From positions 67,977 through 131,976 of IMG/VR virus record IMGVR_UViG_2974624810_000001: a stretch of DNA of 64,000 nt, one strand, 5' to 3'. Below the pieces are notes generated by a model, which ran no database searches, was not told where the DNA came from, and saw only the letters and a list, made by a program, of their open reading frames with translations. The translations under genes and the position numbers were made by a program. How positions within the stretch are numbered: position 1 is the stretch's first letter; the number at the start of each line of letters is the position of its first letter. This DNA is from a virus (taxonomy: Duplodnaviria > Caudoviricetes). Positions 5,727 through 26,957 of the stretch are shown here, one piece after another.

Positions 5727-5803
5727 TGGGGCGTATACCCTCTGTCTGATAAACAGTTGAAAGGTTAAGTGGTCACATGTGGGTTCAACTCCCACCGTCC
5801 CAA
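5727..5803 (+). tRNA. Rewired tRNA-Ile(GAT)-like (D-loop 3' of anticodon arm)
   Basis: tggggcg/cgtccca acceptor, ctgt-ctgataa-acag, T arm gtgggTTCAACTcccac; no D-arm at the normal position. Confidence 0.65.
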
Positions 5804-5843
5804 CTGGTCTCAATGGTGAGACACTGACAACACAACTAATACT

Positions 5844-7661
5844 ATGGTAGATTTCGACAAGAGACATTCCAAGGAACTTGTGAAACGCCCTGACACAGAC
5901 CTGGAGATTTCCAGGTCTTTTCGGTCTTCCGGTCAGGGTGTATTTTCGCATGTCCGGAAGGGTGTCAAAATAACGAGTAAGGCCATTCTGGATTGGGTCT
6001 ATCTGAATGACTATAAGGAAGAGATTGCCAAGGCTAGAAGTGATGGCAATCTGGAAAAGGCCCGGAAGCTGAAGATAGAGCAGGAAAAGCGTAGTGAACC
6101 AAGACGTAAAAGGTTCTACTCCATCCTTGCTGTAGTTATTGCAATAATGGGATGGGCTTACGTCACCTGGAAGATAGTTCCATTGATTGTCATTGGTGTC
6201 GCCGTCCTTGTTGCCATGTGGTTCGTAGGCAGTGGCATGAAGCCTCAGAATCTGGCCTCTGTCATTGCTGGAAAAGGTGATGAAGTCGATGACCCTATGG
6301 AGCCTTTTCCAATTGCCGACGCTCGAAACAGAGACGAGGCTCAGGAGTGCTTGAGACGAGCACTGCTTGCTGAGGGAATCACTCCCAGAGTTATCTTGGA
6401 GCCAGTTCGTTACAATTGGGGTTGGGAAATCCCGGTAGTTCTGAGAAAGGGTACTCCTGATGATGTAATGGCTAAGGCTAAGAAGATGGAGACACTACTA
6501 AGACTTCCTAGTGATGGAATGCTAGTAGCTGCTACTCGATTCCGGGCCGAAGTTGTCATCAGACTTATGCAGACTGACCCATTTGCTGATATGCCTCCAG
6601 ACCAAAGAGCAGAGCCTTTGTCTCGTTCTATTAAGAACAAGTACAAGATTGCTCAGCGAATGGATGGTCAGCACATTGAAATCTCCTTGCTTAGAAATCA
6701 CGCAGTTGTTATTGCTGCTCCTGGTGGCGGTAAGTCAATGTTCATGCGTAAGCTGGCAGACATCACCACTAGCTGTAGAGACTGTGTAACCTGGGACATT
6801 GACCCTGGCGGCAATGGACTCGAAGTTTTCGGAGGAGCTATCGCAAGGCGCGGTAGGACCGAAGAGGAAATTGAAGAAATGCTAACCGAGGCTTTGGAAT
6901 ACACGAAGATTCGTGCAAAGAAGCTGACGAAGCTGGGAATGGGTGACAACTGGCAGCCAAGCAAGGACCATCCTGCCCTCATTATCTTCATTGATGAGTT
7001 CATTCAGCTAAACAAGAAGTGCAAGGATTTGGCCATTCAGATTATTCGCAATGGTCGTAAGGCTGCTATTACCGTTGTTTTGGCTGCACAGCAGGCTACA
7101 AAGGACACTCTTGGCGCTGCTATTGCAGATGCAGTGTCTATCAAGGTAATGTTTGCTTCTCGTCATGCTGACGTACCTCTCGTGTTCGGTGAGGGCATGT
7201 TGTCACAGGGCTGGAGACCTGATAGACTGCATCCAGCTTCAGGTGAAGACGTGGAAGACGCTGGTAAGTGCTACATTTTGGGCGGTGGCTCAAGAGAGCC
7301 TTACCTGTACAAGGTCTATCCAATAGAACCAGATGAAGCCATTGAGATGGGTGATGAGCGTGAAGCAGAGGGCATGCCCGAACTTGACACAGACACCTAC
7401 CTTGATGTTACAGTGACAGACACAACAGACAAGCTCATGTTCGAACACGTGCTTGACATCTTTGAGAACTTTGACGAGCATGACTGGCTACCAGCCAGCA
7501 TCTTGGTCAAGGAACTCAAGGGTTATGGCCACACCTTGACAGCTCGTCAGTTGCATGAGATTCTGGGAGACACCGGCAGAGAAAGCCGTATTTGGGATGG
7601 TTCCAAGTACAAGGTTGCTGGTTACTTCCGTAGAAACATCGAGAAGCAATTGGAGAAGTAG
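5844..7661 (+). CDS. FtsK/SpoIIIE (TraB-like) membrane DNA translocase
   Basis: Two N-terminal TM helices, Walker A APGGGKS, Walker B IIFIDE, GRKAA..LAAQ. Confidence 0.8.
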   Translation: MVDFDKRHSKELVKRPDTDLEISRSFRSSGQGVFSHVRKGVKITSKAILDWVYLNDYKEEIAKARSDGNLEKARKLKIEQEKRSEPRRKRFYSILAVVIAIMGWAYVTWKIVPLIVIGVAVLVAMWFVGSGMKPQNLASVIAGKGDEVDDPMEPFPIADARNRDEAQECLRRALLAEGITPRVILEPVRYNWGWEIPVVLRKGTPDDVMAKAKKMETLLRLPSDGMLVAATRFRAEVVIRLMQTDPFADMPPDQRAEPLSRSIKNKYKIAQRMDGQHIEISLLRNHAVVIAAPGGGKSMFMRKLADITTSCRDCVTWDIDPGGNGLEVFGGAIARRGRTEEEIEEMLTEALEYTKIRAKKLTKLGMGDNWQPSKDHPALIIFIDEFIQLNKKCKDLAIQIIRNGRKAAITVVLAAQQATKDTLGAAIADAVSIKVMFASRHADVPLVFGEGMLSQGWRPDRLHPASGEDVEDAGKCYILGGGSREPYLYKVYPIEPDEAIEMGDEREAEGMPELDTDTYLDVTVTDTTDKLMFEHVLDIFENFDEHDWLPASILVKELKGYGHTLTARQLHEILGDTGRESRIWDGSKYKVAGYFRRNIEKQLEK

Positions 7662-7662
7662 A

Positions 7663-7878
7663 ATGTGGACAGCAGGAGTCATCCTGTATATCGCAGTCTG
7701 CGCCTACCTTTGTAAGAAGAAGGGTTGGCAGATTCATTACATTGCCTGGGGTATGGTGGGTGGTCTCATTCTTGCGACCATCGTTCCTTCCCTTCCGGCG
7801 CAGACGAAGACAACAATGGAGAATGCTGCTCAGGCAGTCGTTTCAATCTTCGAAAGTTCAGGCATCGGGCAGGGTTGA
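7663..7878 (+). CDS. small membrane protein
   Basis: Two hydrophobic helices, coupled to FtsK gene. Confidence 0.6.
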   Translation: MWTAGVILYIAVCAYLCKKKGWQIHYIAWGMVGGLILATIVPSLPAQTKTTMENAAQAVVSIFESSGIGQG

Positions 7879-7936
7879 CAGCAGCTTTGCCCAGATGTAA
7901 GATGTACTTAAACCTAGTCCTTGTGGGACTAGAGGA

Positions 7937-8009
7937 GCGCCTGTAGCATAACGGTCGATGCATCTGTCTTATAAGCAGACGATAGGGGGTTCAATTCCCT
8001 CCAGGCGTA
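7937..8009 (+). tRNA. tRNA-Ile(TAT)
   Basis: tctgt-cttataa-gcaga. Confidence 0.85.
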
Positions 8010-8037
8010 CTTTGTAACTACTAGAGCAGGGGGAATA

Positions 8038-8199
8038 ATGGCACTCTCTTTGTCTGATGGCACTCGTGTAGAAATTACTCGTGGTGACCACAAGGGAAAG
8101 AAGGGCACTGTTCGCATGCAGGGCAAGAACAAGGTTGTCATTCTTGACAACGCTGTTGTGCTCATGGGTGTGAGTGATTCAAACACCAAGAGGTTGTAA
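8038..8199 (+). CDS. small KOW/SH3-like protein
   Basis: GTRVEITRGDHKGKKGTV. Confidence 0.55.
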   Translation: MALSLSDGTRVEITRGDHKGKKGTVRMQGKNKVVILDNAVVLMGVSDSNTKRL

Positions 8200-8381
8200 T
8201 GAAATGCAAGAAATGCGGGGAAACTAAGAAGGAAGTGCGCATTGCTCCCATCGTAGGCGACCCGCTATGTCAGAAGTGCTGGAACGACGTGCAAACTGAT
8301 ATGCGTCGAAAAGGTGCTACTGGCAAAATAGATTACGAAGAGTACGTCCGTGTACAATATCCAAGATGGCTGAGGAGCTAA
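8199..8381 (+). CDS. small Zn-finger protein
   Basis: CKKC...CQKC. Confidence 0.55.
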   Translation: MKCKKCGETKKEVRIAPIVGDPLCQKCWNDVQTDMRRKGATGKIDYEEYVRVQYPRWLRS

Positions 8382-8382
8382 A

Positions 8383-8562
8383 ATGGAAAACAAGGACAAG
8401 CTTGAGTTCGGCACCAAGGTCACCATTTTCGGTGAGCACGCAACCGTATGGGACCTCTGCGAAAATAACACAAGCGTAATCAAGGTTCTCATGAAGAATG
8501 GCCGATTCGCTGGTGATGTTCTCATTGCTGTTCTCGGCAAGGTAAAGCTGGGTTGGCGATAA
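8383..8562 (+). CDS. hypothetical protein
   Basis: RBS gaggag, 59 aa. Confidence 0.5.
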   Translation: MENKDKLEFGTKVTIFGEHATVWDLCENNTSVIKVLMKNGRFAGDVLIAVLGKVKLGWR

Positions 8563-8576
8563 TTCGTCAGCTCATT

Positions 8577-8661
8577 GGAAAGTAAGCGATTGGCTAGCAG
8601 GCATCTTGGAACGGTGCTAAGGGTGTTACAGCCCGGCTGGGTTCGATTCCCAGGCTTTCCG
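8577..8661 (+). tRNA. tRNA-Ser(GGA)
   Basis: gcatc-ttggaac-ggtgc, long variable arm. Confidence 0.85.
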
Positions 8662-8674
8662 CAGGAGGTGTGAT

Positions 8675-8893
8675 ATGATTATCTGTGGGGACACAGTTAA
8701 AGTTAAGCACGGCCGTCCCAACGTGGACCCTGATTACTACGGCAAGCGTGGTAGGGTTCATAAGCGTACTCGAATGCTCGGTGTTCTAGGAGCAGGACAG
8801 TATGAAATTATGTTCTTCGACAGGTCTCTCAATCATCCAATCATGGGTGTTATGGGTGGCTTCAATGAAGAAGACCTGGAAGTTGAACGATGA
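8675..8893 (+). CDS. small KOW/SH3-like protein
   Basis: GDTVKV...YGKRGRV; RBS ggaggtg. Confidence 0.55.
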   Translation: MIICGDTVKVKHGRPNVDPDYYGKRGRVHKRTRMLGVLGAGQYEIMFFDRSLNHPIMGVMGGFNEEDLEVER

Positions 8894-8902
8894 CTTCCTT
8901 AT

Positions 8903-8988
8903 GGAAATGTTAACGTTGGCAGCGTGGAAGGCTCTTGAAAAGCCTACGCCGGTGAAACGGCGCGTCGGTTCGAATCCGACCATTTCCG
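8903..8988 (+). tRNA. tRNA-Ser(TGA)
   Basis: aggct-cttgaaa-agcct, long variable arm. Confidence 0.85.
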
Positions 8989-9005
8989 CTTAAAGAAGGA
9001 GAGTA

Positions 9006-9434
9006 ATGTCACTAACTGGTGAAGCAAAGCGCGAATACCAGCGTAAGTGGGTTGCTGACAGGAGAGCCGCTGGGATAGAATATCTCGGTGGCTCTTGTCG
9101 TATATGTGGAGCTACTGAGAATCTAAACGTGGACCACAAGGACGCATCCACAAAAGTTGACCACAGAATATGGTCTTGGGCCTGGGACAGAGCGCTTAAG
9201 GAATTGGACAAGTGTCAACTTCTCTGTGAGAAGCATCATAGGGAAAAGACAAAGGCCAATGGCGAAACAAATCTTGGCGAAAAGAACGGGCAGGCAAAGC
9301 TGACTGTTAACATTGTTAAGCAAATCAGAGAAGAGTTTGCCAAGGGCGATATCACAAAGGCGGCTTTGGCGAGAAAATATCGAGTGGACGAAAAGGCTAT
9401 TAGAGACCTTCTCGCCGGAAGAACTTGGAAATGA
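9006..9434 (+). CDS. HNH endonuclease with C-terminal HTH
   Basis: CRICG...VDHKD...KCQLLC.KHH; GEKNGQAKL..LARKY. Confidence 0.8.
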   Translation: MSLTGEAKREYQRKWVADRRAAGIEYLGGSCRICGATENLNVDHKDASTKVDHRIWSWAWDRALKELDKCQLLCEKHHREKTKANGETNLGEKNGQAKLTVNIVKQIREEFAKGDITKAALARKYRVDEKAIRDLLAGRTWK

Positions 9435-9583
9435 TGAGTAAAGGAAAGAAGCAAAAGGACTGTTACCATGTCAACGTAAGAAAGATTTACGGTGACGAAA
9501 TCATAGCTTCTGGCTGGAAGAGAGCCTACTGCTATGATTGTAAAAGATACCTACCGGAACTACCTCCAGAGAGGAAAAAGTAA

Positions 9584-9772
9584 ATGGCCAAGGATTTTCC
9601 AAAGGGGAACAACAAGAAGGACTTCATCGAGTTCCTTGAAAAGAACAAGATTGAGTTTTGGTGCTCCATCTGCAACACCGAAAATCCTCGCAAGTGTCAG
9701 TGCTGGACAGACATTCAGCGTTGGGAGCAGGTAGAGCTGTGGCAGGGTGAGGAAAGGCGCAAGAAAAAGTGA
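9584..9772 (+). CDS. hypothetical protein
   Basis: RBS, operonic. Confidence 0.5.
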   Translation: MAKDFPKGNNKKDFIEFLEKNKIEFWCSICNTENPRKCQCWTDIQRWEQVELWQGEERRKKK

Positions 9773-10161
9773 GCGCTGTTCTTCTAGGTGTGCTGATGCA
9801 CTTCATTGGTGACTATCTCATTCAGACAGACTGGATGGCACAACTGAAGACAAAACGCTGGGCACCAGCAATTGTCCACGGTGTCACATACGGTGTCCCG
9901 TTTGTCTTTGTCACGATGTCACCGATAGCTTTGGCTGTCATCATTGTCACTCACATTGTCATCGACCATTATCGCCTGGCACGACATGTCGTCTGGGCAA
10001 AGAATCAGCTCGCCCCCAAGGAATGGCGTTATTCATGGGCTGAGGGAAACCTCACTGGATATCGCAATGACGCACCGCCTTGGCTGACAACTTGGCTGAT
10101 GATTATTGCGGACAACACAATCCACATTGTCATCAACACTCTGGCCATCCTCTATCTATGA
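9769..10161 (+). CDS. DUF3307-like membrane protein
   Basis: HFIGDY..Q, HG..Y, HIVIDH, DNTIH pattern. Confidence 0.75.
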   Translation: MSAVLLGVLMHFIGDYLIQTDWMAQLKTKRWAPAIVHGVTYGVPFVFVTMSPIALAVIIVTHIVIDHYRLARHVVWAKNQLAPKEWRYSWAEGNLTGYRNDAPPWLTTWLMIIADNTIHIVINTLAILYL

Positions 10162-10535
10162 GGATGGCTTTTGTCATTCCCAGGACACTTTGTCATCTGT
10201 CCAGTGACACGTCCTGGGACATGAGGACATGTCCAGTGACATTCATGTGACATGTCCCAGGGCTGTCCTCGAAATTTGAAAAATGGCGGGCGGCTCCGTA
10301 TTCGCATCTCGTTTGTTCATTTGCGAGAGGGCGGCCCGGCGGCCCAGAAGGCGGAACTATGTCTTAAGAACCAGATGCAAGGAAGGGACCTAATGAGGTT
10401 CAAGGAGGGAGTTGACAGGATTCTAGAAGAGGTGCTAAGGTGTAGTTACACTAGAAAATATAAAGAAAAAGATGTTGAAAAACATCTAGAACCGATTAGA
10501 AATAGGTTCTAAATAATATAGAATAAGATAAGGAT

Positions 10536-10823
10536 ATGAGACTCTTTGAACTTCATAGAGACGTAGATTCATCTGGCGTCTCTGGAACAGGAGTGGTAGC
10601 TCAGGGTGTAGAGTTTGACAGTGGTCAGTGTGCTATGACATGGTTGACCGAGTGGAACTCAGTAGCAGTCTATCCAGACATCACCACCCTTGAAGCAATC
10701 CATGGACACAACGGCAACACTCGTGTAGTCTATGTAGAAGGCCCAGTAACCGAGAGGCATGTCATTGTAGCTGGTAAGAAGGTTCCAGTCCGCACAGTTG
10801 ACAGGTTCTCCGACAACCGCTAA
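10536..10823 (+). CDS. conserved actinophage hypothetical protein
   Basis: LHRDVDSSGVSGTGVVAQGVEF...HGHNG. Confidence 0.65.
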   Translation: MRLFELHRDVDSSGVSGTGVVAQGVEFDSGQCAMTWLTEWNSVAVYPDITTLEAIHGHNGNTRVVYVEGPVTERHVIVAGKKVPVRTVDRFSDNR

Positions 10824-10904
10824 AGTAGAACATAGAGCAGGTCGGCAAGCAGGTAAGTGAGGAACACAGGAGCTTGAGCCACAACCCCTCCACCTAGCTC
10901 TCTT

Positions 10905-10980
10905 GCGTCTGTAGTATAGTCTGGTCCAATGCACCTGATTGTCAATCAGGAAATCGCGGGTTCAAATCCCGTCAGGCGCG
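10905..10980 (+). tRNA. tRNA-Asp(GTC)
   Basis: cctga-ttgtcaa-tcagg. Confidence 0.9.
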
Positions 10981-11009
10981 CACTAAAGTATAATCAACCG
11001 TGAGGAATC

Positions 11010-11180
11010 ATGAAGAGTAACTGGAAGTATTCCGCCCATTACAAATCTCCAAGCGGTGGCAAGGCTTCAATTACAAGTCAGGTCAAAGCCAACACCTTTG
11101 ATGAAGCTTACGAACAAGTTCGTGACCAGCTTAAGCATCAGAGCTTTGAGCTTGTTGGCATGGAATTGAGGAAGATGTAA
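11010..11180 (+). CDS. small hypothetical protein
   Basis: RBS gagga; resembles the next two ORFs. Confidence 0.5.
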   Translation: MKSNWKYSAHYKSPSGGKASITSQVKANTFDEAYEQVRDQLKHQSFELVGMELRKM

Positions 11181-11352
11181 TGGCAATCAGATTTTGTCCA
11201 AGCTGCATGCAAAATGTAGTGACAGAACCAACAGGTCCAAAATGCTCTCACTGTGGTGGGAACACGAAGCCTGTTGACAATAAGCTTCCGAAGCCGGAAG
11301 AGATTTTGAAGAAGTACACTTTCCGTAAGCCAAAACACAGAAAGCCTTAAAT

Positions 11353-11598
11353 ATGGCTGATAAGCTATGGCTCGTAGAGGGTCATTATACGAAGAACGGC
11401 ACGAAGGAAACATTCGATAATGTTTTCTCTGCCTCTAACAAGTCCGGCGCTGAGAAGGCTGCAAAGAAGGATTTTGACAGCTATGTAAGTGCTGGATATG
11501 AGAAGAACGCAAAGTTCGGCAAGCTGACTGTTACTAAGGTCAGCGAGTGGACAGAGAAGGACCGCAAGGCATTTCTCAAGAAGAAGGGCATCAAGTAA
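11353..11598 (+). CDS. small hypothetical protein
   Basis: Lys-rich 81 aa ORF. Confidence 0.6.
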   Translation: MADKLWLVEGHYTKNGTKETFDNVFSASNKSGAEKAAKKDFDSYVSAGYEKNAKFGKLTVTKVSEWTEKDRKAFLKKKGIK

Positions 11599-11825
11599 TG
11601 TCAGTCATTGGCAAGAAGCCAAACTGGACTGTTATAGGTAAGCTTGATGTGACATATCCAGGTCAGAAGAAGAAGACCGAAGAGTTCTGCAACTCATTTG
11701 TTGCGAAGAACAAGGCTGATGCAATCAAGCAGGCTCAGAAGCTGTTTGATGAGATGAAGGATGACATCCCTGGTGTCACTTATGCCAATCTTCGCGCTCT
11801 GAAGGCAGAGCCTAGCGGTTGGTGA
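11598..11825 (+). CDS. small hypothetical protein
   Basis: TAATG coupling. Confidence 0.6.
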   Translation: MSVIGKKPNWTVIGKLDVTYPGQKKKTEEFCNSFVAKNKADAIKQAQKLFDEMKDDIPGVTYANLRALKAEPSGW

Positions 11826-11845
11826 ACAGGGCCCGAAAGGGCTAT

Positions 11846-11916
11846 CCCGGCATAGTGTAGTGGAAACACGATACGTTGTCAGCGTATTATCGAGGGTTCA
11901 ATTCCCTCTGTCGGGA
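11846..11916 (+). tRNA. tRNA-Asp(GTC)
   Basis: atacg-ttgtcag-cgtat. Confidence 0.85.
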
Positions 11917-11920
11917 CAAA

Positions 11921-12035
11921 GTGGGTCGAACGAGATATCGGTTATCTAAATTCCCTTGAAATGAATAAAGGCAGGTTCGAATCCTGCATCGCCCAAGGAA
12001 CGGGCAATCTCCGATTCTCAACAATATATCCACCA
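11921..12035 (+). ncRNA. Y RNA-like RNA 3 (YrlA-like, with T-arm)
   Basis: gtgggt/atccac stem, GTCGAACG, gagatatcgg/ccgattctc, T-arm gcaggTTCGAATcctgc; 0.76 kb upstream of the Ro60 gene. Confidence 0.8.
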
Positions 12036-12038
12036 AAT

Positions 12039-18402: not shown

Positions 18403-18477
18403 GCCCCAGTATTGGCCCGGCCTTCTAAGCCAGAGGCGCATAACGGAAAGATGCAGGTTCGAATCCTGTCTGGGGTG
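18403..18477 (+). tRNA. Rewired tRNA-Arg(TCT)-like
   Basis: gccccag/ctggggt, ggc-cttctaa-gcc, D-loop-like AACGGAAA just before the T-arm. Confidence 0.6.
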
Positions 18478-20635: not shown

Positions 20636-21167
20636 CTGGCCGCCAAAGCTAGGGGAGATAGCTACCTCTGGCAAGGATAAACCGGATGATAGGCTATGGT
20701 ATTCTAGACAGGCTATAGTTGAAGACAAGGTGGAAACCCAGAGGCAAACTGGGGCACGGCCAACCAATTGATGTGGTAGCTCAACTACAAGAGGTGAGTA
20801 GCAGTAATGACTGTGTCTGAGCTTATTAAGGCATTGAGTGAGATGGACCAGAATGCGACTGTCGTCATGGTGGTTGATGTTCCAGGACCAGAGATTGACA
20901 TCGACTTGGTAGAGGCTTCAAAGGGCTACTACTCAGGTGACGATGTGGTTGAACTGAGTTAAGCTTTACAACAGCACGTAGATTGTTCGTGTACCTTTGG
21001 TTTTACGGCTTTTTAAATCTTAGGAGCGGACATGAAGAAGGGTTTAGCGGCCCTACCCAATCAAGAGGAAGCCGTTGAGATTGGTCGTGCTACAGTAAAA
21101 GAGCGGATGTTGGGACCGCTTCAAGCAAGAGACGTCGCTCAAAGACGGAGTGCTGCATCCCTTCCTA

Positions 21168-21240
21168 TGGCCTATAGCTTAATCGGCAGAGCGGTTGGTT
21201 GTTACCCAATCTGGTGTAGGTTCGAATCCTGCTAGGTCAG
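21168..21240 (+). tRNA. tRNA-Asn(GTT)
   Basis: gttgg-ttgttac-ccaat. Confidence 0.85.
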
Positions 21241-21406
21241 CTCGCACAGAGATTATATCAACGTGCTCTCGTAGAGTCCCAACTTAGGTTGGGACTTTCT
21301 GCGTTGAGGCCCGGTGGTGTTGACAGGTCTCCTTACTTCCAGTAGAGTAGTAACAAGCAAGCAGCCACAAAGTATGCTATCCTATTCAAACAATAGGAGG
21401 CAAACA

Positions 21407-21574
21407 ATGAGGTTCGCTTTTGGACTAAGACCAGGACATGTTACTAAGCATGGTACAGTCGTAGCAGTGCAGAAAACCTTCGATGGTAAGCACATGCAGT
21501 TGACACTAGCTGGTCGGTCAGATAATGTAGTCATAAGCAAGTACACAATCGTCCGAACAACATTCTGGAGTTAA
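21407..21574 (+). CDS. hypothetical protein
   Basis: RBS aggagg, upstream promoter at about 21320. Confidence 0.55.
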   Translation: MRFAFGLRPGHVTKHGTVVAVQKTFDGKHMQLTLAGRSDNVVISKYTIVRTTFWS

Positions 21575-21575
21575 A

Positions 21576-21977
21576 GTGTCAGACGCCACTGAGGCTGAGG
21601 ACAAGGCCGAAGAGGAAATCAGTGACAGTCTTGATGACGGTCGTCCTATCAAGGAGATTGTCAAGGATGCGGCCAAGGCGTATGCTGTTGCCAAGGGTCG
21701 CAAGGCTTTCTTCGCTGCTGTAAAGCTGATGAAGGCCAAGGAAAAGGAAAAGGGCGGCGAGAAGAAGAACACGAAGGGCGTAAAGGCTATGCAGAAGAAG
21801 GCGTCTCAGCTTCGCGTTGGAGACATCACTTCTAATGGTGAAGTCCTCACCATTAGCAAGTCCCCTGTGGACCGCAAGCAGTTCGAAATCGTCTTCATGG
21901 GCCCTTCTGGTTCTGACCGTCAGGTTGTTGACCAGAACACCAAGTACGAAGTTGTTGAGCGTCGAAGCATCCGCTGA
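21576..21977 (+). CDS. hypothetical protein
   Basis: 133 aa ORF. Confidence 0.55.
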   Translation: MSDATEAEDKAEEEISDSLDDGRPIKEIVKDAAKAYAVAKGRKAFFAAVKLMKAKEKEKGGEKKNTKGVKAMQKKASQLRVGDITSNGEVLTISKSPVDRKQFEIVFMGPSGSDRQVVDQNTKYEVVERRSIR

Positions 21978-21996
21978 ACAACGGCCTTCGGGCCAA

Positions 21997-22068
21997 GTCC
22001 CTATAGTTTAGAGGATAGAACGTCACTCTCCTAAAGTGAAGACGCAGGTTCGACTCCTGCTGGGGATA
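21997..22068 (+). tRNA. tRNA-Arg(CCT), canonical
   Basis: tcact-ctcctaa-agtga, D-loop AGAGGATA. Confidence 0.9.
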
Positions 22069-22306
22069 CATGTTGAATGAAGACAGACAGCGAGTTTACC
22101 TGCGAGACAGGAAGACGTATACTCCGAAACAGGTAAGACGCCTTAACAAGAAATACTGGCAAGGAAAGTTCATCGATGATGACTACGCACCTTGTCCCAG
22201 TTGTGGTGGTCCATATGACCACAGCGAGGCGGCATGTCAAGGAGATTACGAAGAGAATTGGAGTTGACGCGAAGCCCGGTAGGGTGTAGAGTAGTCAACA
22301 GAACAA

Positions 22307-22381
22307 GGGAGCGTAGCTCAGTCTGGTCGGAGCAATGCACTGATAATGCATCGGTCGCTGGTTCAAATCCAGCCGTTCCTA
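22307..22381 (+). tRNA. tRNA-Ile(GAT), canonical
   Basis: atgca-ctgataa-tgcat. Confidence 0.9.
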
Positions 22382-22385
22382 CTTC

Positions 22386-22457
22386 GGGGTCGTAGCATAA
22401 CGGTAATGCACTTGTATGGCATACAAGCGATTGTGGGTTCAAATCCCATCGACTCCA
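22386..22457 (+). tRNA. tRNA-Ala(GGC)
   Basis: cttgt-atggcat-acaag; G3:U70. Confidence 0.85.
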
Positions 22458-22626
22458 CGCAGTTTTATCAGTTTCTGGCCCAACATGAAACTGAACGAGG
22501 CAGGTTCTAGCAGACCTAATTGGGTGCAAGGTATAGCCCGTATACCCCTTGCAGCGTACAGACCACATGTGCTAGCATGGTACGTATACTAGAGAGTATG
22601 CGGCTGGTCCCCAATTACTCTCACTT

Positions 22627-22699
22627 GCTCCGGTAGCTCAGTTGGCAGAGCAGGGGACTCTTAATCCTCGTGTCGCTGGTTCAAGTCCAGTTCGGAGTA
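22627..22699 (+). tRNA. tRNA-Lys(CTT)
   Basis: gggga-ctcttaa-tcctc. Confidence 0.9.
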
Positions 22700-22826
22700 C
22701 AAAGCAAGGTTGCAAACTTGCTCAATCACATTGGGGTTCGATTCCCTCTGGTGAAACAATGTGGTGTAATTGAGAGGAAAAGGCGGAGGCACATAATAAA
22801 GCCTTGCTGTCTAGCCGCTCTCTTAT

Positions 22827-22901
22827 GGTCCAGTCGCACAGTCTGGTAGTGCAATTGACTTTTAATCTTTGTGGACGTGGGTTCGAATCCCACCTGGACC
22901 A
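22827..22901 (+). tRNA. tRNA-Lys(TTT)
   Basis: loop cttttaa; weak anticodon stem. Confidence 0.8.
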
Positions 22902-22954
22902 CTTCAAAGTCTTCGAAATTGGCTTAATAGTTCGAAGTCAATTACAATCAGAGT

Positions 22955-23389
22955 ATGAAGACATGCTATGATTGTAAGAAGGAAAAGCCATTCAGCGAGT
23001 TCGCCAAGAACAAGGCTCGTAAAGATGGTCACAATGGACAGTGTAAGTCATGTAAGAACGCTTACACAAAGAAGCATTACAGTGATAACAAAGATTACTA
23101 TGTAGGTAAGGCTCGCAAAAATGGTGAGTCCTATCGGGCGGCAGCTAGAGAGTTTCTGTGGGACTATCTAAGCAAGCATCCATGTATTGACTGTGGAGAG
23201 TCTGACCCGATAGTATTGGAACTAGACCACAGAAATGGTGTGACGAAGGTCAAAGGTCTTGGGCCAATGGCCAAGGATGGCTCGCTTGACAAGATGAGAG
23301 CAGAGCTACTAAAATGTGATGTGAGATGTTGCAACTGCCATCGACGCAGAACAGCAAAGCAATTTGGTTGGTGGCAGTTGCTTAAATAA
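22955..23389 (+). CDS. HNH endonuclease (paralog of 17425..17850)
   Basis: HPCIDCGESDPIVLELDH...KCDVRCCNCH. Confidence 0.8.
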   Translation: MKTCYDCKKEKPFSEFAKNKARKDGHNGQCKSCKNAYTKKHYSDNKDYYVGKARKNGESYRAAAREFLWDYLSKHPCIDCGESDPIVLELDHRNGVTKVKGLGPMAKDGSLDKMRAELLKCDVRCCNCHRRRTAKQFGWWQLLK

Positions 23390-23390
23390 T

Positions 23391-23466
23391 GCCCTAGTAT
23401 CCGCTCTGGCTTCGAACCAGTTGAAACGGTAATGGATACATGTAGGTTCGAATCCTATCTGGGGCA
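23391..23466 (+). tRNA. Rewired tRNA-Arg(TCG)-like
   Basis: gccctag/ctggggc, ctgg-cttcgaa-ccag, AATGGATA D-loop after the anticodon arm. Confidence 0.65.
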
Positions 23467-23668
23467 CTTGACATAGCCAAGATGGCATGTCATTGTTAAG
23501 GGCACAGCGGACAAGGCTTAGGCGGATGAAACAGGCCGGTGGGATGCGAGTGGCTGACCAGTCCTTGACACAAGCGGGGAACGTTGAGTATGCTAACCTC
23601 ATAGAGGAACGACGACTAACAAGTTCCCCGCTTTTTAATAAACAACTATAGTAACTAGGAGTTACACA

Positions 23669-24334
23669 ATGGGTCTTTTCGGTAAGAAGGACAACAAGGG
23701 CACTACGTCTGACGGAGCATCTGCGACTCAGGCTGCGCCTGCGGTCTCTACCGGTAAGCTCAATCTGAGTAAGGGTGGCAGCTCTGCTTTCAGCCTGGAA
23801 AAGGGCACGCGAGTCACTGCTACTCTTGAGTGGGATGGCGGAAGTTCAGCCCGTCGTGCTCGTGGTGCGGACCTTGAGCTTTATGCTCTGTACGTCACTA
23901 AGGGCAAGGCAAACAAGATGCGCAAGGATGCTGGTGGCGCAGTCTATTGGAACAACCTGGCAGCAGATGGCATTCGTCATCTTGGTGACTCCCTTGTTCC
24001 TGGCAAGGAGACTGTTGTCATTGAGCGTACTGACAACATTGCGTACGTTCTCATCGTTGCCTACTCTGCTGTAAGCAACGGTCCTGGCTCCTTCAAGTCT
24101 TTCGGGGCTAAGGCTGTTGTCACTGATGGCAAGGGTCAGACTGTGACGGCTCCTCTGTATAACGACAATCACGGCAGCTACTGGGTAGCCATCGCGCTTG
24201 TTGATTTCACTGTAGAGGGACAGGTTGCCATCAAGCACGTTGAGGATTACTCTCGTGGTGGTGAGCGTCGTCCGGTTCTGTATTCTGACGGTTCTCACAA
24301 GATGGATGTTGGCCCGGTCGAGTTCAAGAGTTGA
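23669..24334 (+). CDS. TerD-like stress protein
   Basis: LNLSKG, LEWD, DLELYALYV, HLGD, G.GSF. Confidence 0.6.
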   Translation: MGLFGKKDNKGTTSDGASATQAAPAVSTGKLNLSKGGSSAFSLEKGTRVTATLEWDGGSSARRARGADLELYALYVTKGKANKMRKDAGGAVYWNNLAADGIRHLGDSLVPGKETVVIERTDNIAYVLIVAYSAVSNGPGSFKSFGAKAVVTDGKGQTVTAPLYNDNHGSYWVAIALVDFTVEGQVAIKHVEDYSRGGERRPVLYSDGSHKMDVGPVEFKS

Positions 24335-24567
24335 CACACTCGACAGGATGATGTAGAGTAGTAAACATCAGGGAAACCCGCTCAAACTTGGCCTAAGAAG
24401 CCCGGTGGCGTTCAGGGAAGCGGGGATGTGTGGTAGAGTGAACGTACCCACACAAGGCCAAAGTAGAAAGTCCCCGAAATGGTCTTGACAAATTGCTGGG
24501 CAAGCGCTACAGTCGAAGAGGTGGAGCGAAAGCAGAGAAGCCAATGACTCGACCCAAAGCGCTATAT

Positions 24568-24639
24568 GGCAGTGTGGTGAAACGGCTATCACGTTCCCCT
24601 CATAAGGGAAAATCGAAGGTTCGATTCCTTCCATTGCTA
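24568..24639 (+). tRNA. tRNA-Met(CAT)
   Basis: ttccc-ctcataa-gggaa. Confidence 0.85.
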
Positions 24640-24641
24640 CT

Positions 24642-24713
24642 TGCAGGTTAGTGAAACGGTATCACGTAGGGCTCATAATCCTAAATTCCTGTTCGAATCA
24701 GGGCCTGCCCCCA
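24642..24713 (+). tRNA. tRNA-Met(CAT), initiator-like
   Basis: taggg-ctcataa-tccta, 1:72 mismatch. Confidence 0.75.
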
Positions 24714-25102
24714 CGTAACACAAACAATCAAGCGATACACAACAAGGAGAAATAACATGCCTGGTCCTCTTTCTACCCCGAACTCCTCCAAGCCGATGAC
24801 TCAGAAGGAGCTTCGGGAGCGCGTTGAGAACCTGATGCGGGGTAAGGCTCCGCAGACTGGCAAGACTGCGAAGAAGCGCGGTCACTGACTTTCAAGGAGA
24901 TTAAATGCACGGTAAGAGTGTAAAGTATCTCAACACAGCACACTCTGAATCAGAGCGTGATAGGATGGTCAAGGATTTTGAGAAGGCTCTGAAGAGGAAC
25001 AAGCTGCCTGGTAGAATTGAGGCAGAGTTCCGAAGGGTCAAGTACACCCATCAGTGGGACATCTACCACATAGTAGATTGAAAAAAGGCCCTTTGGGGCT
25101 AT

Positions 25103-25184
25103 GCGTAAGCGGCGAAGTTGGAGAGACGCGGTGGTCTGTAAAACCATTCCTTCGGGTGAGTCAGTTCGAATCTGACCTTACGCA
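25103..25184 (+). tRNA. tRNA-Tyr(GTA)
   Basis: gtggt-ctgtaaa-accat, variable arm. Confidence 0.9.
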
Positions 25185-25240
25185 CGTACAGTATAATAGA
25201 AAGAAGAGGTTGTAGCAGCTCCTCTGGAAAAGCTGCCTAT

Positions 25241-25312
25241 GCATGTAAGCCAGGGATAAGCTAGGCGGGCCTGTAAAGCCCTACCTCGATGGTTCGAATC
25301 CGTCTACATGCA
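25241..25312 (+). tRNA. tRNA-Tyr(GTA), short variable region
   Basis: gggc-ctgtaaa-gccc. Confidence 0.75.
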
Positions 25313-25411
25313 CCGGGGTCACATCCTACCCCGAAGCTTACAGCTTGACTTTCTCTCTACAGGGCCCGTAGAATTAAGAGAAGCCAGGCCGAGGAGCAAA
25401 GGATGTCCTAT

Positions 25412-25486
25412 GGTGGCTGTATCATAAAAGTAATGTACTAGGCTGTGAACCTAGGTAAGAGGGGGCGGTACCCTCCAGTCACCCCA
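25412..25486 (+). tRNA. tRNA-His(GTG)
   Basis: ctagg-ctgtgaa-cctag, G-1, C73, CCA; odd T-loop. Confidence 0.75.
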
Positions 25487-25509
25487 AGTAGGTTAACTCC
25501 TACAATCAT

Positions 25510-25585
25510 GGGGTTGGTAGCTCAATTGGATTAGAGCGCTGCGTTGTGGTCGCAGTGGTTGAGGGTTCGAGTCCCTTCCTTCCCA
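25510..25585 (+). tRNA. tRNA-His(GTG)
   Basis: ctgcg-ttgtggt-cgcag. Confidence 0.8.
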
Positions 25586-25767
25586 CTTGTTAGTCACCTG
25601 TGCTGCTAGGGATAATGGGCAGCCTCGCATAGGGTGCAAGGATTGCAGGAAACTCGGCGCGCAGAGACCAGCAATCTCGTAAAAAGCTATCCCGGAAACT
25701 TGGGTGGCTGTACGGCAAAAGGTCCGTATGGTGATATCTCTCCAAACTCCCTAAAGGTTTGGCGCAA

Positions 25768-25839
25768 GGGCATGTAGCTCAGTTGGTAGAGCGTCGGTGT
25801 GAAGTACCGAGTGCGAGGGTTCGATTCCCTACTTGCCCA
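25768..25839 (+). tRNA. tRNA-Phe(GAA)
   Basis: tcggt-gtgaagt-accga. Confidence 0.8.
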
Positions 25840-25840
25840 C

Positions 25841-26170
25841 ATGAATAGAATGAGAAAGGCAGCCAGTGTTGCTAGCCTTCTTCTCGTTCTTGTTGGATGC
25901 GGTAGCGATAACAAGGATAGTCTAACAACTACAGACAAAGCGTATGTTAAAACGTTGAGAGAAGAAATCACTGGTGTCAAGGATATGAGCGACAATAAGC
26001 TAATCGCTCTGGCGCATGAAGCTTGTGCTGGTTCTGACAATGGTGATGAGTTCAATGAAACCGTTCGCAAAGTCAGTAGTTATGGCCTGACAGAAAGTGA
26101 TTCTGCTTACCTTACAGGAGCTGCATTCGCTGCGTATTGTCCAGATAATGTAAGTAAAATCGGAAGCTGA
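25841..26170 (+). CDS. DUF732-like lipoprotein
   Basis: Lipobox LVGC, D.AY...L, AHEAC, AAFAAYCP. Confidence 0.7.
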   Translation: MNRMRKAASVASLLLVLVGCGSDNKDSLTTTDKAYVKTLREEITGVKDMSDNKLIALAHEACAGSDNGDEFNETVRKVSSYGLTESDSAYLTGAAFAAYCPDNVSKIGS

Positions 26171-26171
26171 C

Positions 26172-26411
26172 ATGATGCAAATAGACATTAGATACTCATT
26201 CGGAAACGGGCCCTACACAGTAGGTGGAGAGATTGATGAAGTTCCATTCGAGATGACATATCACGATGGAGAGGCATATCTCATCGTCTTGACTGACGAC
26301 TTCGTTCTTCGAACATTCTGTGTCTACAGTCCAATGCATGGCAAGCTGGATAATCTGATGACAGGGCAGTTGATATTCAATTTGGCCCGGCAGCTTGACA
26401 GCGAAGCTTGA
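26172..26411 (+). CDS. hypothetical protein
   Basis: Operonic ORF. Confidence 0.5.
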   Translation: MMQIDIRYSFGNGPYTVGGEIDEVPFEMTYHDGEAYLIVLTDDFVLRTFCVYSPMHGKLDNLMTGQLIFNLARQLDSEA

Positions 26412-26430
26412 TTCCTGTAAGGTAGTTTAT

Positions 26431-26504
26431 GAGGTAGAAGCAACGGGTGTTGCCGACAGTCTGCAAAACTGTTCGTATTTGGAGTTCGACTCTCCTCTAT
26501 CTCT
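26431..26504 (+). tRNA. tRNA-Cys(GCA)
   Basis: acagt-ctgcaaa-actgt, U73. Confidence 0.8.
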
Positions 26505-26520
26505 CTGGTACAATAGAAAT

Positions 26521-26595
26521 GCCTCGTTAGCTCATTTGGTGTAGAGCGACGCTCTTGTAAAGCGTAGGTGGTCGGTTCGAAACCGACACGAGGCT
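26521..26595 (+). tRNA. tRNA-Thr(TGT)
   Basis: acgct-cttgtaa-agcgt. Confidence 0.9.
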
Positions 26596-26688
26596 CAATG
26601 AGGAGTCATGCTGGGGAGAATGCAACCGAACTAGCCTCTGGCAAATCAGGACGGTCTAGTAGCTAGTTGCAGGCGAACGGCCTTTAAT

Positions 26689-26761
26689 GCCTAGTTAGTG
26701 ACAGTGGTAGAACATTTCCTTGGTACGGAAAAGGTCGTGGGTTCGATTCCCACACTAGGCT
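26689..26761 (+). tRNA. tRNA-Thr(GGT)
   Basis: tttcc-ttggtac-ggaaa. Confidence 0.85.
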
Positions 26762-26880
26762 CGTTATGAATACAATTAAGCTAAGGCTCAAGGCTTTGTT
26801 TCACAAGGCTAAGCCATATATCCCACTAGCACTCGCTTGGTGGAAGTCACGCAAGAACAAGACTCGCTAAGAGTCTTCAT

Positions 26881-26957
26881 ACTCTCGTATACCCTCTGGC
26901 TACGAACCAGTTGAAAGGTTAAAGGACTACATGGAGGTTCGAATCCTCTCGGGAGTG
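26881..26957 (+). tRNA. Rewired tRNA-Arg(ACG)-like
   Basis: actctcg/cgggagt, ctgg-ctacgaa-ccag, AAAGGACTA D-loop after the anticodon arm. Confidence 0.65.

What the first reader, a model, noticed from the sequence alone, without database searches (positions are those of the whole stretch)
5727..26957. Family of four topologically rewired tRNAs with the D-loop relocated 3' of the anticodon arm
Seen: four genes (Ile-GAT 5727-5803, Arg-TCT 18403-18477, Arg-TCG 23391-23466, Arg-ACG 26881-26957) have a 7-bp acceptor stem, an anticodon arm with a canonical 7-nt loop and a normal T-arm, but only about 8 nt between acceptor and anticodon stems, so no D-arm. The order is: acceptor-TA-[tacc/tccg]-ct-anticodon arm-TTGAAA-[ggtt/cggt]-D-loop-like AAGTGGTCA, AATGGATA or AAAGGACTA-CAT-T-arm. 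The Arg-TCT copy is more divergent, with AACGGAAA-GAT. The bracketed strands covary (acc:ggt in Ile and Arg-ACG, ccg:cgg in Arg-TCG). Established: G18G19 pairs with the T-loop and A20 is the ArgRS identity element. All three Arg copies keep GGA, while the Ile copy has GGT. Inference: the two D-stem strands have swapped order along the chain while the L-shape and identity elements are kept. These would be functional tRNAs that standard scanners miss or call pseudogenes, and they may evade host tRNA-targeting nucleases or modification enzymes. They are the only Arg ACG, TCG and TCT genes in this window. I am not aware of a description of this architecture but cannot search the literature.
Basis: partly seen in the sequence, partly recalled or inferred. 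Interest (0 to 1): 0.93.

Follow-up and report, generated by a model that had tools for sequence, protein, structure and literature searches.

The report
Rewired-core arginine and isoleucine phage tRNAs
This Streptomyces phage carries four tRNA genes (three arginine, one isoleucine) in which one D-stem strand and the D-loop lie after the anticodon arm instead of before it. The design is conserved in many phages, gene finders miss it, and I found no paper describing it.

Summary
ARAGORN calls none of the four. Rfam's tRNA model aligns them only by deleting the D arm and inserting 17-18 nt before the T arm.

The proposed helix, which joins the strand after U8-A9 to the strand after the anticodon arm, is real. 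In 63 distinct relatives from viral contigs, fetched with a pattern that left both strands free, its three pairs are Watson-Crick in every sequence, with four pair types each.

The relocated segment reads like a D-loop (A14, A15, G18G19, A21). Arg members always have A after GG (27/27), the bacterial ArgRS determinant. Ile/CAU members always have U and A73 (36/36).

In 16 related Streptomyces phages, each of the four Arg anticodons is present exactly once, as either a canonical or a rewired gene (49 + 15, none empty, none doubled). In this phage the rewired genes are the only decoders for about 86% of its Arg codons.

Best reading: working tRNAs with a strand-permuted core. No RNA, charging or structural data were obtainable. 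The nuclease-evasion idea is untested.

Ten literature searches found no description. Earlier agents of this scan reported the same family on other genomes.

The parts
5727..5803 (+). Rewired tRNA-Ile(GAU), 77 nt. Segments: acceptor 5727-5733 / 5796-5802; U8A9 5734-5735; anticodon arm 5742-5756 (anticodon 5748-5750); T arm 5779-5795; discriminator A 5803.
   Evidence: R1 92.9 bits. Rfam tRNA 30.3 bits. Missed by ARAGORN. Orthologue present in 10 of 15 related Streptomyces phages searched.
5736..5739 (+). Ile gene: 5' strand of the enclosing helix (U + ACC). It is topologically the D-stem 3' strand (positions 22-25) and runs straight into the anticodon stem.
   Evidence: Pairs with 5763-5766. 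The three inner pairs are 100% Watson-Crick in 63/63 family members, with four pair types each.
5757..5762 (+). Ile gene: linker UUGAAA between the anticodon stem and the returning helix strand. By inference the first U faces U15, G pairs with C14, and AAA is bulged.
   Evidence: C14/G33 is C:G in 62/63 and U15/U31 is U.U in 63/63. The linker itself was fixed by the search pattern, so its invariance there is not evidence. Variants UAGAAA, AGAAA and UCGUUAACA occur in relatives.
5763..5778 (+). Ile gene: returning strand GGU+U (D-stem 5' strand, positions 10-13), then the D-loop-like AAGUGGUCA (A14 A15 .. G18 G19 U20 .. A21) and CAU (46-48 equivalent).
   Evidence: GG was not required by the search pattern but is present in all 63 aligned members. 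It is absent only in L025, which was left out of the alignment. U follows GG in 36/36 Ile/CAU members.
18403..18477 (+). Rewired tRNA-Arg(UCU), 75 nt, extended-helix subtype. Helix strands 18412-18417 and 18435-18441 (with bulged G 18438); anticodon 18424-18426; D-loop-like AACGGAAA 18442-18449; GAU 18450-18452; T arm 18453-18469.
   Evidence: R1 40.1 bits. Rfam 29.5 bits. Homologues in Gilson, Comrade, Moab, Daubenski, MulchMansion, Rhodococcus phage NiceHouse and Alishewanella phage Slicko01 carry compensatory changes, e.g. GGC:GCC to GGU:ACC or CGC:GCG.
23391..23466 (+). Rewired tRNA-Arg(UCG), 76 nt. Helix CCG 23401-23403 with CGG 23427-23429; anticodon 23412-23414; linker 23421-23426; D-loop-like AAUGGAUA 23431-23438; CAU 23439-23441; T arm 23442-23458.
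   Evidence: R1 86.5 bits. Identical in phages Braelyn, Persimmon, WhereRU and Navo. The same slot in NootNoot holds a canonical tRNA-Arg(UCG).
26881..26957 (+). Rewired tRNA-Arg(ACG), 77 nt. Helix ACC 26891-26893 with GGU 26917-26919; anticodon 26902-26904; linker 26911-26916; D-loop-like AAAGGACUA 26921-26929; CAU 26930-26932; T arm 26933-26949.
   Evidence: R1 82.7 bits. Rfam 25.2 bits, below threshold. The same slot in NootNoot holds a canonical tRNA-Arg(ACG) with a shared downstream flank. Phages of Microbacterium and Rhodococcus carry close relatives.

Best explanation
The four genes encode working elongator tRNAs (Ile-GAU, Arg-UCU, Arg-UCG, Arg-ACG) built on a strand-permuted core.

**Order along the chain**
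- Canonical order: acceptor, 8-9, D-stem 5' strand, D-loop, D-stem 3' strand, 26, anticodon arm, variable loop, T arm.
- Order here: acceptor, U8-A9, D-stem 3' strand, 26-like C, anticodon arm, linker, D-stem 5' strand, D-loop, CAU, T arm.

**How the helix forms**
- The D stem forms as a helix that encloses the anticodon arm. It is 3 Watson-Crick pairs capped by U.U in three copies, and about 6 layers in the UCU copy.
- The local geometry is unchanged. The strand that runs into the anticodon stem behaves as positions 22-25. The strand that runs out into the GG loop behaves as positions 10-13.

**Inferred steps**
- The helix stacks on the anticodon stem. I can draw about 10 layers in all three subtypes, the same as a cloverleaf (5 + 26/44 + 4).
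- G18G19 dock on the normal T-loop to make the elbow.
- U8-A14 and A15-U48 can form.
- Host ArgRS reads A20 and C35. Host IleRS reads the anticodon and A73.

**Role**
- The phage is 49.5% G+C. It would use these tRNAs like its about 35 ordinary ones, to read codons that are common in its genes.
- Why the core is rewired is not known.
For: **Shown**
1. The helix is real. In 63 distinct members, fetched with a pattern that did not specify either strand, all 3 pairs are Watson-Crick in 63/63. Each pair shows four pair types (CG, AU, GC, UA). Whole-structure covariation is 0.905, against 0.21 for shuffles and 0.11-0.18 for slid controls. An unbiased mutual-information scan ranks these pairs among the classical stem pairs.
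2. The architecture is specific. Model R1 separates members (59-96 bits; UCU subtype about 32-43) from canonical tRNAs (28.5 bits or less).
3. Identity coupling holds. The base after GG is A in 27/27 Arg members and U in 36/36 Ile/CAU members. All Ile/CAU members have A73. The strongest non-helix mutual information (0.88) links anticodon position 35 with this base. Bacterial Arg identity is A20, C35, U/G36 and A/G73. Ile identity includes A73 and U20 (PMC9976931).
4. Only Arg (ACG, UCG, UCU, CCU) and Ile/CAU (GAU, UAU, CAU) anticodons occur.
5. Natural substitution is seen. In 16 related Streptomyces phages, each of the four anticodons ACG/GCG, UCG, UCU and CCU is present exactly once, canonical or rewired: 49 + 15, 0 empty, 0 double. 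NootNoot has canonical genes in the very slots of the window's UCG and ACG genes. Daubenski has no canonical Ile-GAU, only the rewired one.
6. The phage needs them. ARAGORN finds only Arg-CCU in the whole genome. Codons CGU, CGC, CGA, CGG and AGA make up 86% of Arg codons in its long ORFs.
7. The Ile orthologues of the window and NootNoot differ by three compensated pairs in the anticodon stem.
8. Lack of an encoded CCA is normal here. None of the 38 ARAGORN-called tRNAs checked in the window encodes one; the single exception in the window is the odd 29949-30021 gene, which ends in CCA.
9. The family is viral. About 80 of 123 pattern matches in the viral-contig and phage loci held are members, against 2 of 120 in bacterial and archaeal genomes.

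**Inferred**
- Stacking, elbow docking, charging and decoding.
Against: - No RNA-level evidence could be obtained. All public runs holding this DNA are kept as contigs, which cannot show expression, ends or CCA.
- No charging, decoding or structural data exist.
- The one-gene-per-anticodon pattern is partly built in. Rewired and canonical genes replace each other at the same locus, and the 16 phages are related. I count about 6-8 independent events by eye, not 64. What is not built in is that the replacing gene always carries the anticodon that would otherwise be missing.
- MFE folding of single sequences is unremarkable (z from +0.1 to -2.2). For Arg-UCG it prefers a different pairing.
- Candidate tertiary pairs (U8-A14, A15-U48, C14-G33) are invariant, so they cannot be tested by covariation.
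- In my mapping, pair 11:24 is mostly purine:pyrimidine. By my recollection of tRNA consensus, that is the reverse of the usual elongator rule.
Confidence: 0.75

Rival explanations
1. They are functional but floppy D-armless tRNAs. The 5' connector merely lengthens the anticodon arm, as in mitochondrial tRNA-Ser(GCU). The GG-containing segment is just a long variable loop that does not rebuild a D-loop/T-loop elbow or an L-shape.
For: [quoted passage not shown]
- No covariation can be measured for the proposed tertiary contacts.
Against: - Unlike the mitochondrial case, the T-loop is fully canonical.
- The relocated loop keeps A14, A15, GG and A21-like positions in all 63 aligned members, although the search pattern did not ask for GG.
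- The base after GG follows the D-loop identity rule of ArgRS.
- In this same phage, tRNAs that lack GG also have aberrant T-loops. Keeping both therefore suggests they are used together.
Confidence: 0.13
2. They are tRNA-like RNAs with a non-translational role. They could be decoys that soak up host anticodon nucleases or other tRNA-targeting defences, or regulators. They would not be charged or used by the ribosome.
For: - Phage tRNAs are known to counter tRNA-targeting defences (PMC10264068, PMC11555353; listed).
- The unusual fold could spoil charging while keeping an anticodon loop as bait.
Against: - A decoy would not let the phage lose the canonical isoacceptor. Yet wherever a rewired Arg gene is present, the canonical gene of that anticodon is absent.
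- In this phage that would leave 86% of Arg codons to the host alone.
- Acceptor stem, discriminator and A20/U20 identity features are conserved, which a decoy of an anticodon nuclease would not need.
Confidence: 0.08
3. The transcript is cut and religated (phages of this kind encode RNA ligases or kinases) into the ordinary cloverleaf order, as happens for circularly permuted tRNA genes of red algae.
For: RNA ligase or polynucleotide kinase genes lie near the tRNA arrays of A3Wally and Trina.
Against: - The acceptor halves are already in normal order.
- Restoring the cloverleaf would need an internal block to be excised and reinserted (three breaks, two or more joins).
- I saw no bulge-helix-bulge-type motif when reading the sequences (no formal scan).
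- Conservation of the linker and of CAU fits a mature role.
Confidence: 0.02
4. They are decayed pseudogenes or chance look-alikes.
For: Low Rfam scores and no ARAGORN call.
Against: - Helix covariation is perfect.
- Near-identical cores occur in phages of Streptomyces, Microbacterium, Rhodococcus and Alishewanella, and in many uncultured viral contigs.
- Orthologues are retained across genera.
Confidence: 0.01

Closest known systems
Canonical bacterial/phage tRNA-Arg and tRNA-Ile (Rfam RF00005 cloverleaf), e.g. the canonical Arg-UCG and Arg-ACG genes of phage NootNoot in the same genomic slots
   Same: - 7-bp acceptor stem, U8, a 7-nt anticodon loop with U33, and a canonical T arm.
- D-loop consensus with G18G19.
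- A20 in Arg, A73 in Ile.
- Same anticodons and same positions in the tRNA array.
   Different: - There is no D hairpin between position 9 and the anticodon stem.
- The D-stem 5' strand and the D-loop lie 3' of the anticodon arm.
- The D stem encloses the anticodon arm, so the secondary structure is a three-way junction, not a four-arm cloverleaf.
- There is an extra conserved linker (UUGAAA).
D-armless mitochondrial tRNA-Ser(GCU/AGY) (PMC9427863) and other armless mt-tRNAs (PMC7609411)
   Same: There is no D hairpin. The 5' connector pairs to lengthen the anticodon arm.
   Different: - The mitochondrial tRNA has lost the tertiary core and has a remodelled T-loop.
- The phage family keeps a full D-loop sequence, a canonical T-loop and synthetase identity bases.
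- It occurs in phages of bacteria with ordinary translation systems, not in organelles with co-evolved factors.
Circularly permuted tRNA genes of Cyanidioschyzon merolae (my recollection: Soma et al. 2007)
   Same: tRNA segments are in a non-standard order in the gene.
   Different: - There the 3' half precedes the 5' half, and processing restores a normal cloverleaf RNA.
- Here the termini are normal and only an internal block is transposed. The mature RNA is presumably collinear with the gene.
Class II tRNAs with long variable arms (Leu, Ser, bacterial Tyr)
   Same: There is a long segment between the anticodon and T stems. One annotator called the Alishewanella member tRNA-Ser.
   Different: - The segment does not form its own hairpin. 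It pairs with the strand upstream of the anticodon arm and carries the D-loop.
- The normal D arm is absent.
8/4 and 9/3 tRNAs and allo-tRNAs (Mukai et al., PMC5389517)
   Same: They are non-standard tRNA architectures found in metagenomes and phages that standard finders handle poorly.
   Different: - Those alter the acceptor/T-stem lengths within a cloverleaf.
- Here the acceptor/T branch is the standard 7/5 and the connectivity of the core is changed.

Membership tests
tRNA (Rfam RF00005, cloverleaf) | 7-bp acceptor stem closing the molecule, plus a discriminator base | tested here: met
   Acceptor pairs are 97.5% paired with changes on both sides in all 7 pairs across 63 members.
tRNA (Rfam RF00005, cloverleaf) | Anticodon stem with a 7-nt loop, U33 and purine 37 | tested here: met
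   The loops are CUGAUAA, CUUCUAA, CUUCGAA and CUACGAA. The stem has 4 Watson-Crick pairs plus U.U, 98% paired.
tRNA (Rfam RF00005, cloverleaf) | T arm: 5-bp stem and GUUCRANYC loop | tested here: met
   GGUUCGAAUCC or GGUUCAACUCC in all four. 97.8% paired in the family.
tRNA (Rfam RF00005, cloverleaf) | D hairpin (stem 10-13:22-25 with loop 14-21) located between position 9 and the anticodon stem | tested here: not met
   Only 8 nt lie there. Rfam's alignment deletes the D arm. The equivalent strands are split around the anticodon arm.
tRNA (Rfam RF00005, cloverleaf) | Score at or above the family's gathering threshold (29 bits) | tested here: inconclusive
   Scores are 32.0, 30.3 and 29.5 bits (barely above) and 25.2 bits (below).
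tRNA (functional definition) | Transcribed, processed, CCA-tailed, aminoacylated and used by the ribosome | not testable with these tools
   Public runs are held only as contigs. Indirect support comes from complementary distribution with canonical isoacceptors and codon demand.
Bacterial tRNA-Arg identity set | A20 in the D-loop, C35, U/G36, A/G73 (PMC9976931) | tested here: met
   In the window's three Arg genes: GGA, C35 and G36 or U36. The discriminator is G, A and G. In the family A follows GG in 27/27 Arg members, and 22/27 have A/G73. Whether that A occupies the spatial position of A20 is inferred.
Bacterial tRNA-Ile identity set | A73, anticodon GAU, A37, A38, U20, U12-A23 (PMC9976931) | tested here: met
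   The window Ile gene has A73, loop CUGAUAA (A37, A38), GGU (U20) and helix pair A:U at the 23:12-equivalent position. U after GG and A73 occur in 36/36 family members. C4-G69 is not met (G4.U69).
D-armless mitochondrial tRNAs | Loss of the D-loop/T-loop tertiary core, with a degenerate T-loop | tested here: not met
   A canonical T-loop and a GG-containing D-loop consensus are retained (PMC9427863).
Permuted tRNA genes | 3' half encoded upstream of the 5' half, with a processing motif at the junction | tested here: not met
   The acceptor 5' and 3' strands are at the two ends of the gene in normal order.
Class II (long variable arm) tRNA | The variable region forms its own stem-loop, and a normal D arm is present | tested here: not met
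   The family shows no conserved internal hairpin. The strand pairs with positions 11-13 instead, and the D arm is absent.

The most novel reading that the evidence does not exclude
These are fully active, aminoacylated, ribosome-used tRNAs that are not cloverleaves. They would be the first such elongator tRNA class outside organelles. The rewiring would be adaptive: it would make the phage's Arg and Ile tRNAs invisible to a tRNA-directed nuclease or modification enzyme of the host, or of the phage itself, that recognises the normal D-arm or variable-loop connectivity. That would explain why the design spreads as a cassette among unrelated large phages.
Probability: 0.2. Interest if true: 0.95.

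Novelty: new variant of a known kind. Interest (0 to 1): 0.85.

Why it matters
**For tRNA biology**
- If these genes work as tRNAs, bacterial ArgRS, IleRS, RNase P, the CCA enzyme, EF-Tu and the ribosome all accept a different strand connectivity.
- That would mean the three-dimensional core, not the cloverleaf wiring, is the real constraint.

**For annotation**
- ARAGORN, one of the usual phage annotation tools, called none of these genes here. Most of the GenBank phage records examined leave them unannotated or misname them.
- Where that happens, a phage's tRNA repertoire, codon-compensation analyses and 'missing isoacceptor' inferences are wrong. In this phage three of four Arg tRNAs are invisible.

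**For engineering**
- The scaffold is a natural candidate for orthogonal or nuclease-resistant tRNAs.

**For testing**
- Cultured phage/host pairs exist. Braelyn and Persimmon carry rewired UCG and ACG genes. NootNoot carries canonical genes in the same slots. The question is therefore directly testable.

Tried and rejected
1. **RNA evidence.** `look-up of sequencing runs` found 20 holders of window:18000-27500, all kept as Logan contigs. `read laying` on four RNA-labelled runs showed whole-genome-like cover in three (DNA or relatives). The one true RNA run had two contigs over CDS regions, none over the tRNAs. Nothing can be said about expression, ends or CCA.
2. **Alternative 'distal' helix.** This would pair the 5' strand with the GG of the D-loop-like segment. 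It is favoured by the MFE fold of Arg-UCG (GUAUCC:GGAUAC). It is rejected. GG is invariant while the 5' strand varies, so it pairs only when that strand holds C (78-79%), and the next position pairs in 19%.
3. **Single-sequence folding.** It gave no significant stability signal. Comparative analysis was needed.
4. **Bacterial and archaeal genomes.** The same pattern gave 120 (capped) matches, of which only 2 are family members. The cap prevents a true frequency estimate.
5. **Literature.** Ten full-text searches and four papers were read for structure or identity content (the fifth, PMC13313380, is covered in point 7). I found no description of this layout. A 2023 catalogue of viral structured RNAs lists an unnamed 'tRNA-Arg-overlapping' candidate (DNAVirus_2961, PMC10690425). 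I could not inspect it because no supplements are held. I therefore cannot exclude that the motif sits unnamed in that catalogue.
6. **Encoded CCA.** Its absence is not informative, because the phage's ordinary tRNAs lack it too.
7. **Rhodococcus phage paper.** PMC13313380 counts Trina's tRNAs but does not discuss the 'tRNA-OTHER' gene.

Full report
**What is in the window**

The window is the right half (67977-131976) of a 131,976-bp phage genome with terminal repeats, 49.5% G+C. It is about 87% identical to Streptomyces phages of the genus Samistivirus such as NootNoot.

ARAGORN finds 39 tRNA genes and a tmRNA here, but none at the four reported places.
- a 7-bp acceptor stem and U8-A9;
- eight nucleotides before a 4-bp (+U.U) anticodon stem;
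- a normal 7-nt anticodon loop (GAU, UCU, UCG, ACG);
- about 22 nt, then a textbook T arm.

Rfam's tRNA model reaches only 25-32 bits. Its alignment deletes the D arm and opens a 17-18-nt insertion before the T stem.

**Is the swapped helix real?**

I scanned IMG/VR with a pattern made of the linker, two A's, AUG and the T-stem start. Both candidate helix strands were left as N.
- About 80 of the 123 matches held in the viral-contig and phage loci are full-length relatives with a pairing acceptor stem. That gives 64 distinct true sequences, of which 63 were aligned (L025, which lacks GG, was left out).
- In every aligned one, the three bases at positions 11-13 are the exact complement of the three bases right after the linker.
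- Fifteen different helix sequences occur (ACC:GGU, CGG:CCG, CUC:GAG, GCC:GGC, CAC:GUG and others).
- On the alignment of 63 distinct sequences, the three pairs are Watson-Crick in 63/63, each with four pair types.
- The whole structure scores 0.905 in covariation, against 0.21 for shuffles and 0.11-0.18 for slid partners.
- A blind mutual-information scan of all column pairs puts two of these three pairs among the top three and the third at rank 14.
- A competing pairing with the GG segment, preferred by the energy fold of Arg-UCG, does not covary and is rejected.

A covariance model of the layout (R1) scores the window's genes at 92.9, 86.5, 82.7 and 40.1 bits. No ordinary tRNA scores above 28.5 bits. 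The whole phage genome has just these four.

**What the layout means**

- The strand after U8-A9 runs 5' to 3' into the anticodon stem. That is what D-stem strand 22-25 does in a cloverleaf.
- The strand after the linker runs away from the anticodon stem into a loop reading A-A-N-N-G-G-N-(N)-A. That is what strand 10-13 and D-loop 14-21 do.
- The helix is capped by U.U (A-U in three members), like the often non-Watson-Crick 13:22 pair. Its inner pair is G:C in 49/63, like G10:C25.
- U8, the A14-like A, the A15-like A and the U just before the T stem (48-like) are invariant.
- Only three chain joins differ from a cloverleaf: 9 to 22, 43 via a linker to 10, and 21 via CAU to 49.

I can draw about ten stacked layers from the anticodon loop to the top of the helix, the same as a cloverleaf (5 + 26/44 + 4):
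- Main type: 4 + U.U + C:G + 3 + U.U, with AAA bulged.
- The window's UCU subtype: 4 + 3 + 2 + U.U.
- The Trina/Francob subtype, which has a 9-nt linker.

This count, the stacking and the elbow are my inference from sequence, not a test.

**Evidence that they are tRNAs in function**

1. *Identity elements.* Across the family only Arg (ACG, UCG, UCU, CCU) and Ile/CAU (GAU, UAU, CAU) anticodons occur. The base after GG is A in 27/27 Arg members and U in 36/36 Ile/CAU members. All Ile/CAU members also have A73. The strongest non-helix coupling in the alignment links anticodon position 35 with that base. A20 is the main determinant of bacterial ArgRS. A73 and U20 belong to the Ile set (PMC9976931).

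2. *Natural substitution.* I fetched the tRNA regions of 15 related Streptomyces phages. I ran ARAGORN and took the R1 hits. In all 16 genomes, each of the four anticodons ACG (or GCG), UCG, UCU and CCU is represented exactly once: 49 canonical and 15 rewired, none missing, none doubled.

| Phage(s) | ACG/GCG | UCG | UCU | CCU |
|---|---|---|---|---|
| Window | rewired | rewired | rewired | canonical |
| Braelyn, Persimmon | rewired | rewired | canonical | canonical |
| Daubenski, MulchMansion, Moab, Gilson, Comrade, Francob | canonical | canonical | rewired | canonical |
| Yaboi | canonical | canonical | rewired | rewired |
| TunaTartare | canonical | rewired | canonical | canonical |
| NootNoot, Bartholomune, Samisti12, Jay2Jay, Blueeyedbeauty | canonical | canonical | canonical | canonical |

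   - NootNoot's canonical UCG and ACG genes lie in the very slots of the window's rewired ones, with shared downstream flanks.
   - Because replacement is at the same locus and the phages are related, this amounts to perhaps 6-8 independent events by my reading of the table, not 64.
   - The replacing gene always carries the anticodon that would otherwise be lost.
   - Daubenski lacks a canonical Ile-GAU and keeps only the rewired one, which lies at a different locus.

3. *Demand.* The only ARAGORN-visible tRNA-Arg in the genome is CCU. Yet CGU, CGC, CGA, CGG and AGA make up 86% of Arg codons in the phage's long ORFs.

4. *Orthologue conservation.* The rewired Ile gene is retained in all ten Samistivirus/Karimacvirus genomes searched. 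The window and NootNoot versions differ by three compensated pairs in the anticodon stem.

5. *CCA.* The absence of an encoded CCA is shared with all the phage's ordinary tRNAs.

**Breadth**

- Near-identical cores occur in phages of Microbacterium (A3Wally), Rhodococcus (Trina, NiceHouse) and Alishewanella. They also occur in a 462-kb uncultured phage and in dozens of viral contigs of 100-400 kb.
- Searching the fetched contigs with R1 turned up further variants with other linkers and helix lengths.
- In bacterial and archaeal genomes only 2 of 120 pattern matches are members.
- Most of the GenBank records checked leave these genes unannotated. Others call them tRNA-OTHER, tRNA-Val or tRNA-Ser, or draw a CDS over them.

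**What is not shown**

- No tool here could show the RNA, its ends, its charging or its fold. The public runs holding this DNA are contigs only.
It has no specific support.

**Comparison and novelty**

- The closest known objects are ordinary tRNA-Arg/Ile, which have the same parts in a different order.
- Next is the D-armless mitochondrial tRNA-Ser(GCU). Its D-replacement loop also lengthens the anticodon stem, but it has lost the tertiary core (PMC9427863).
- Permuted tRNA genes, class II tRNAs and allo-tRNAs each fail a defining feature.
- A 2020 review of non-canonical tRNAs does not mention phages at all (PMC7609411).
- Ten full-text searches found nothing like this. An unnamed candidate in a 2023 viral RNA catalogue could not be inspected.
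- Earlier agents of this scan reported the same family on other genomes and also found no description. I treated those notes as leads and re-derived the structure independently.
It also adds the three subtypes with equal layer counts.

**Verdict**

- Best reading (about 0.75): working tRNAs with a strand-permuted core.
- I class it as a new variant of a known kind, of high interest.

Noticed in passing
window:16990-17067: A tRNA-like element with an 8-bp acceptor-type helix and a canonical T arm. Its middle is a single 7-bp hairpin with a 16-nt loop containing AAUGGAC. ARAGORN and Rfam (at threshold) do not call it. It may be another non-cloverleaf design.
   Followed up: partly
window:17996-18104: A 109-nt Rfam tRNA hit (35.4 bits) with a normal D arm and T arm and an insert of about 35 nt around the anticodon region. 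Its identity is unclear.
   Followed up: no
window:18249-18320 and window:25413-25483: Second Phe(GAA)-like and His(GUG)-like tRNAs. Their D-loops lack GG and their T-loops lack UUC (GUGCGAUAC, GCGGUAC), as if both elbow partners changed together. ARAGORN misses them. They sit near canonical Phe and His genes.
   Followed up: partly
window:25241-25312: A 72-nt tRNA-Tyr(GUA)-like gene without the long variable arm expected of bacterial tRNA-Tyr. It lies next to a normal 83-nt tRNA-Tyr and is annotated as a second tRNA-Tyr in NootNoot.
   Followed up: no
window:29949-30021: ARAGORN reports 'tRNA-???' with a 6-nt anticodon loop (two-base anticodon). It is the only tRNA-like gene in the window that ends in an encoded CCA.
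   Followed up: no
L132 (Rhodococcus phage NiceHouse, MT521992.1 100951-101025); Yaboi MH727564.1 86686-86763; L133 (Alishewanella phage Slicko01 17417-17495): Public annotations are wrong at rewired genes. A hypothetical-protein CDS is drawn over NiceHouse's Arg-ACG gene. Yaboi's Arg-UCU is labelled tRNA-Val. The Alishewanella phage's Arg-UCU is labelled tRNA-Ser.
   Followed up: yes
L259:731-805 and L296:727-803: These are the only two family members among 120 pattern matches in bacterial/archaeal genome assemblies. L259 is on a 9.8-kb contig of a Planctomycetota MAG, possibly a mis-binned phage contig.
   Followed up: partly
window:23446-23466 versus L001:1500-1522: Homology between the window and NootNoot resumes inside the 3' part of the tRNA gene. 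The outer acceptor bases of the rewired and canonical genes at one slot are alike (GCCC...GGGGCA). Cross-phage blast matches cover only positions 6-66. This suggests the rewired core moves between tRNA genes as a cassette by gene conversion.
   Followed up: partly
window:28111-28377: The phage encodes a tmRNA (tag AESNSAFALAA). NootNoot's tag differs (ANSKFAFALAA).
   Followed up: no
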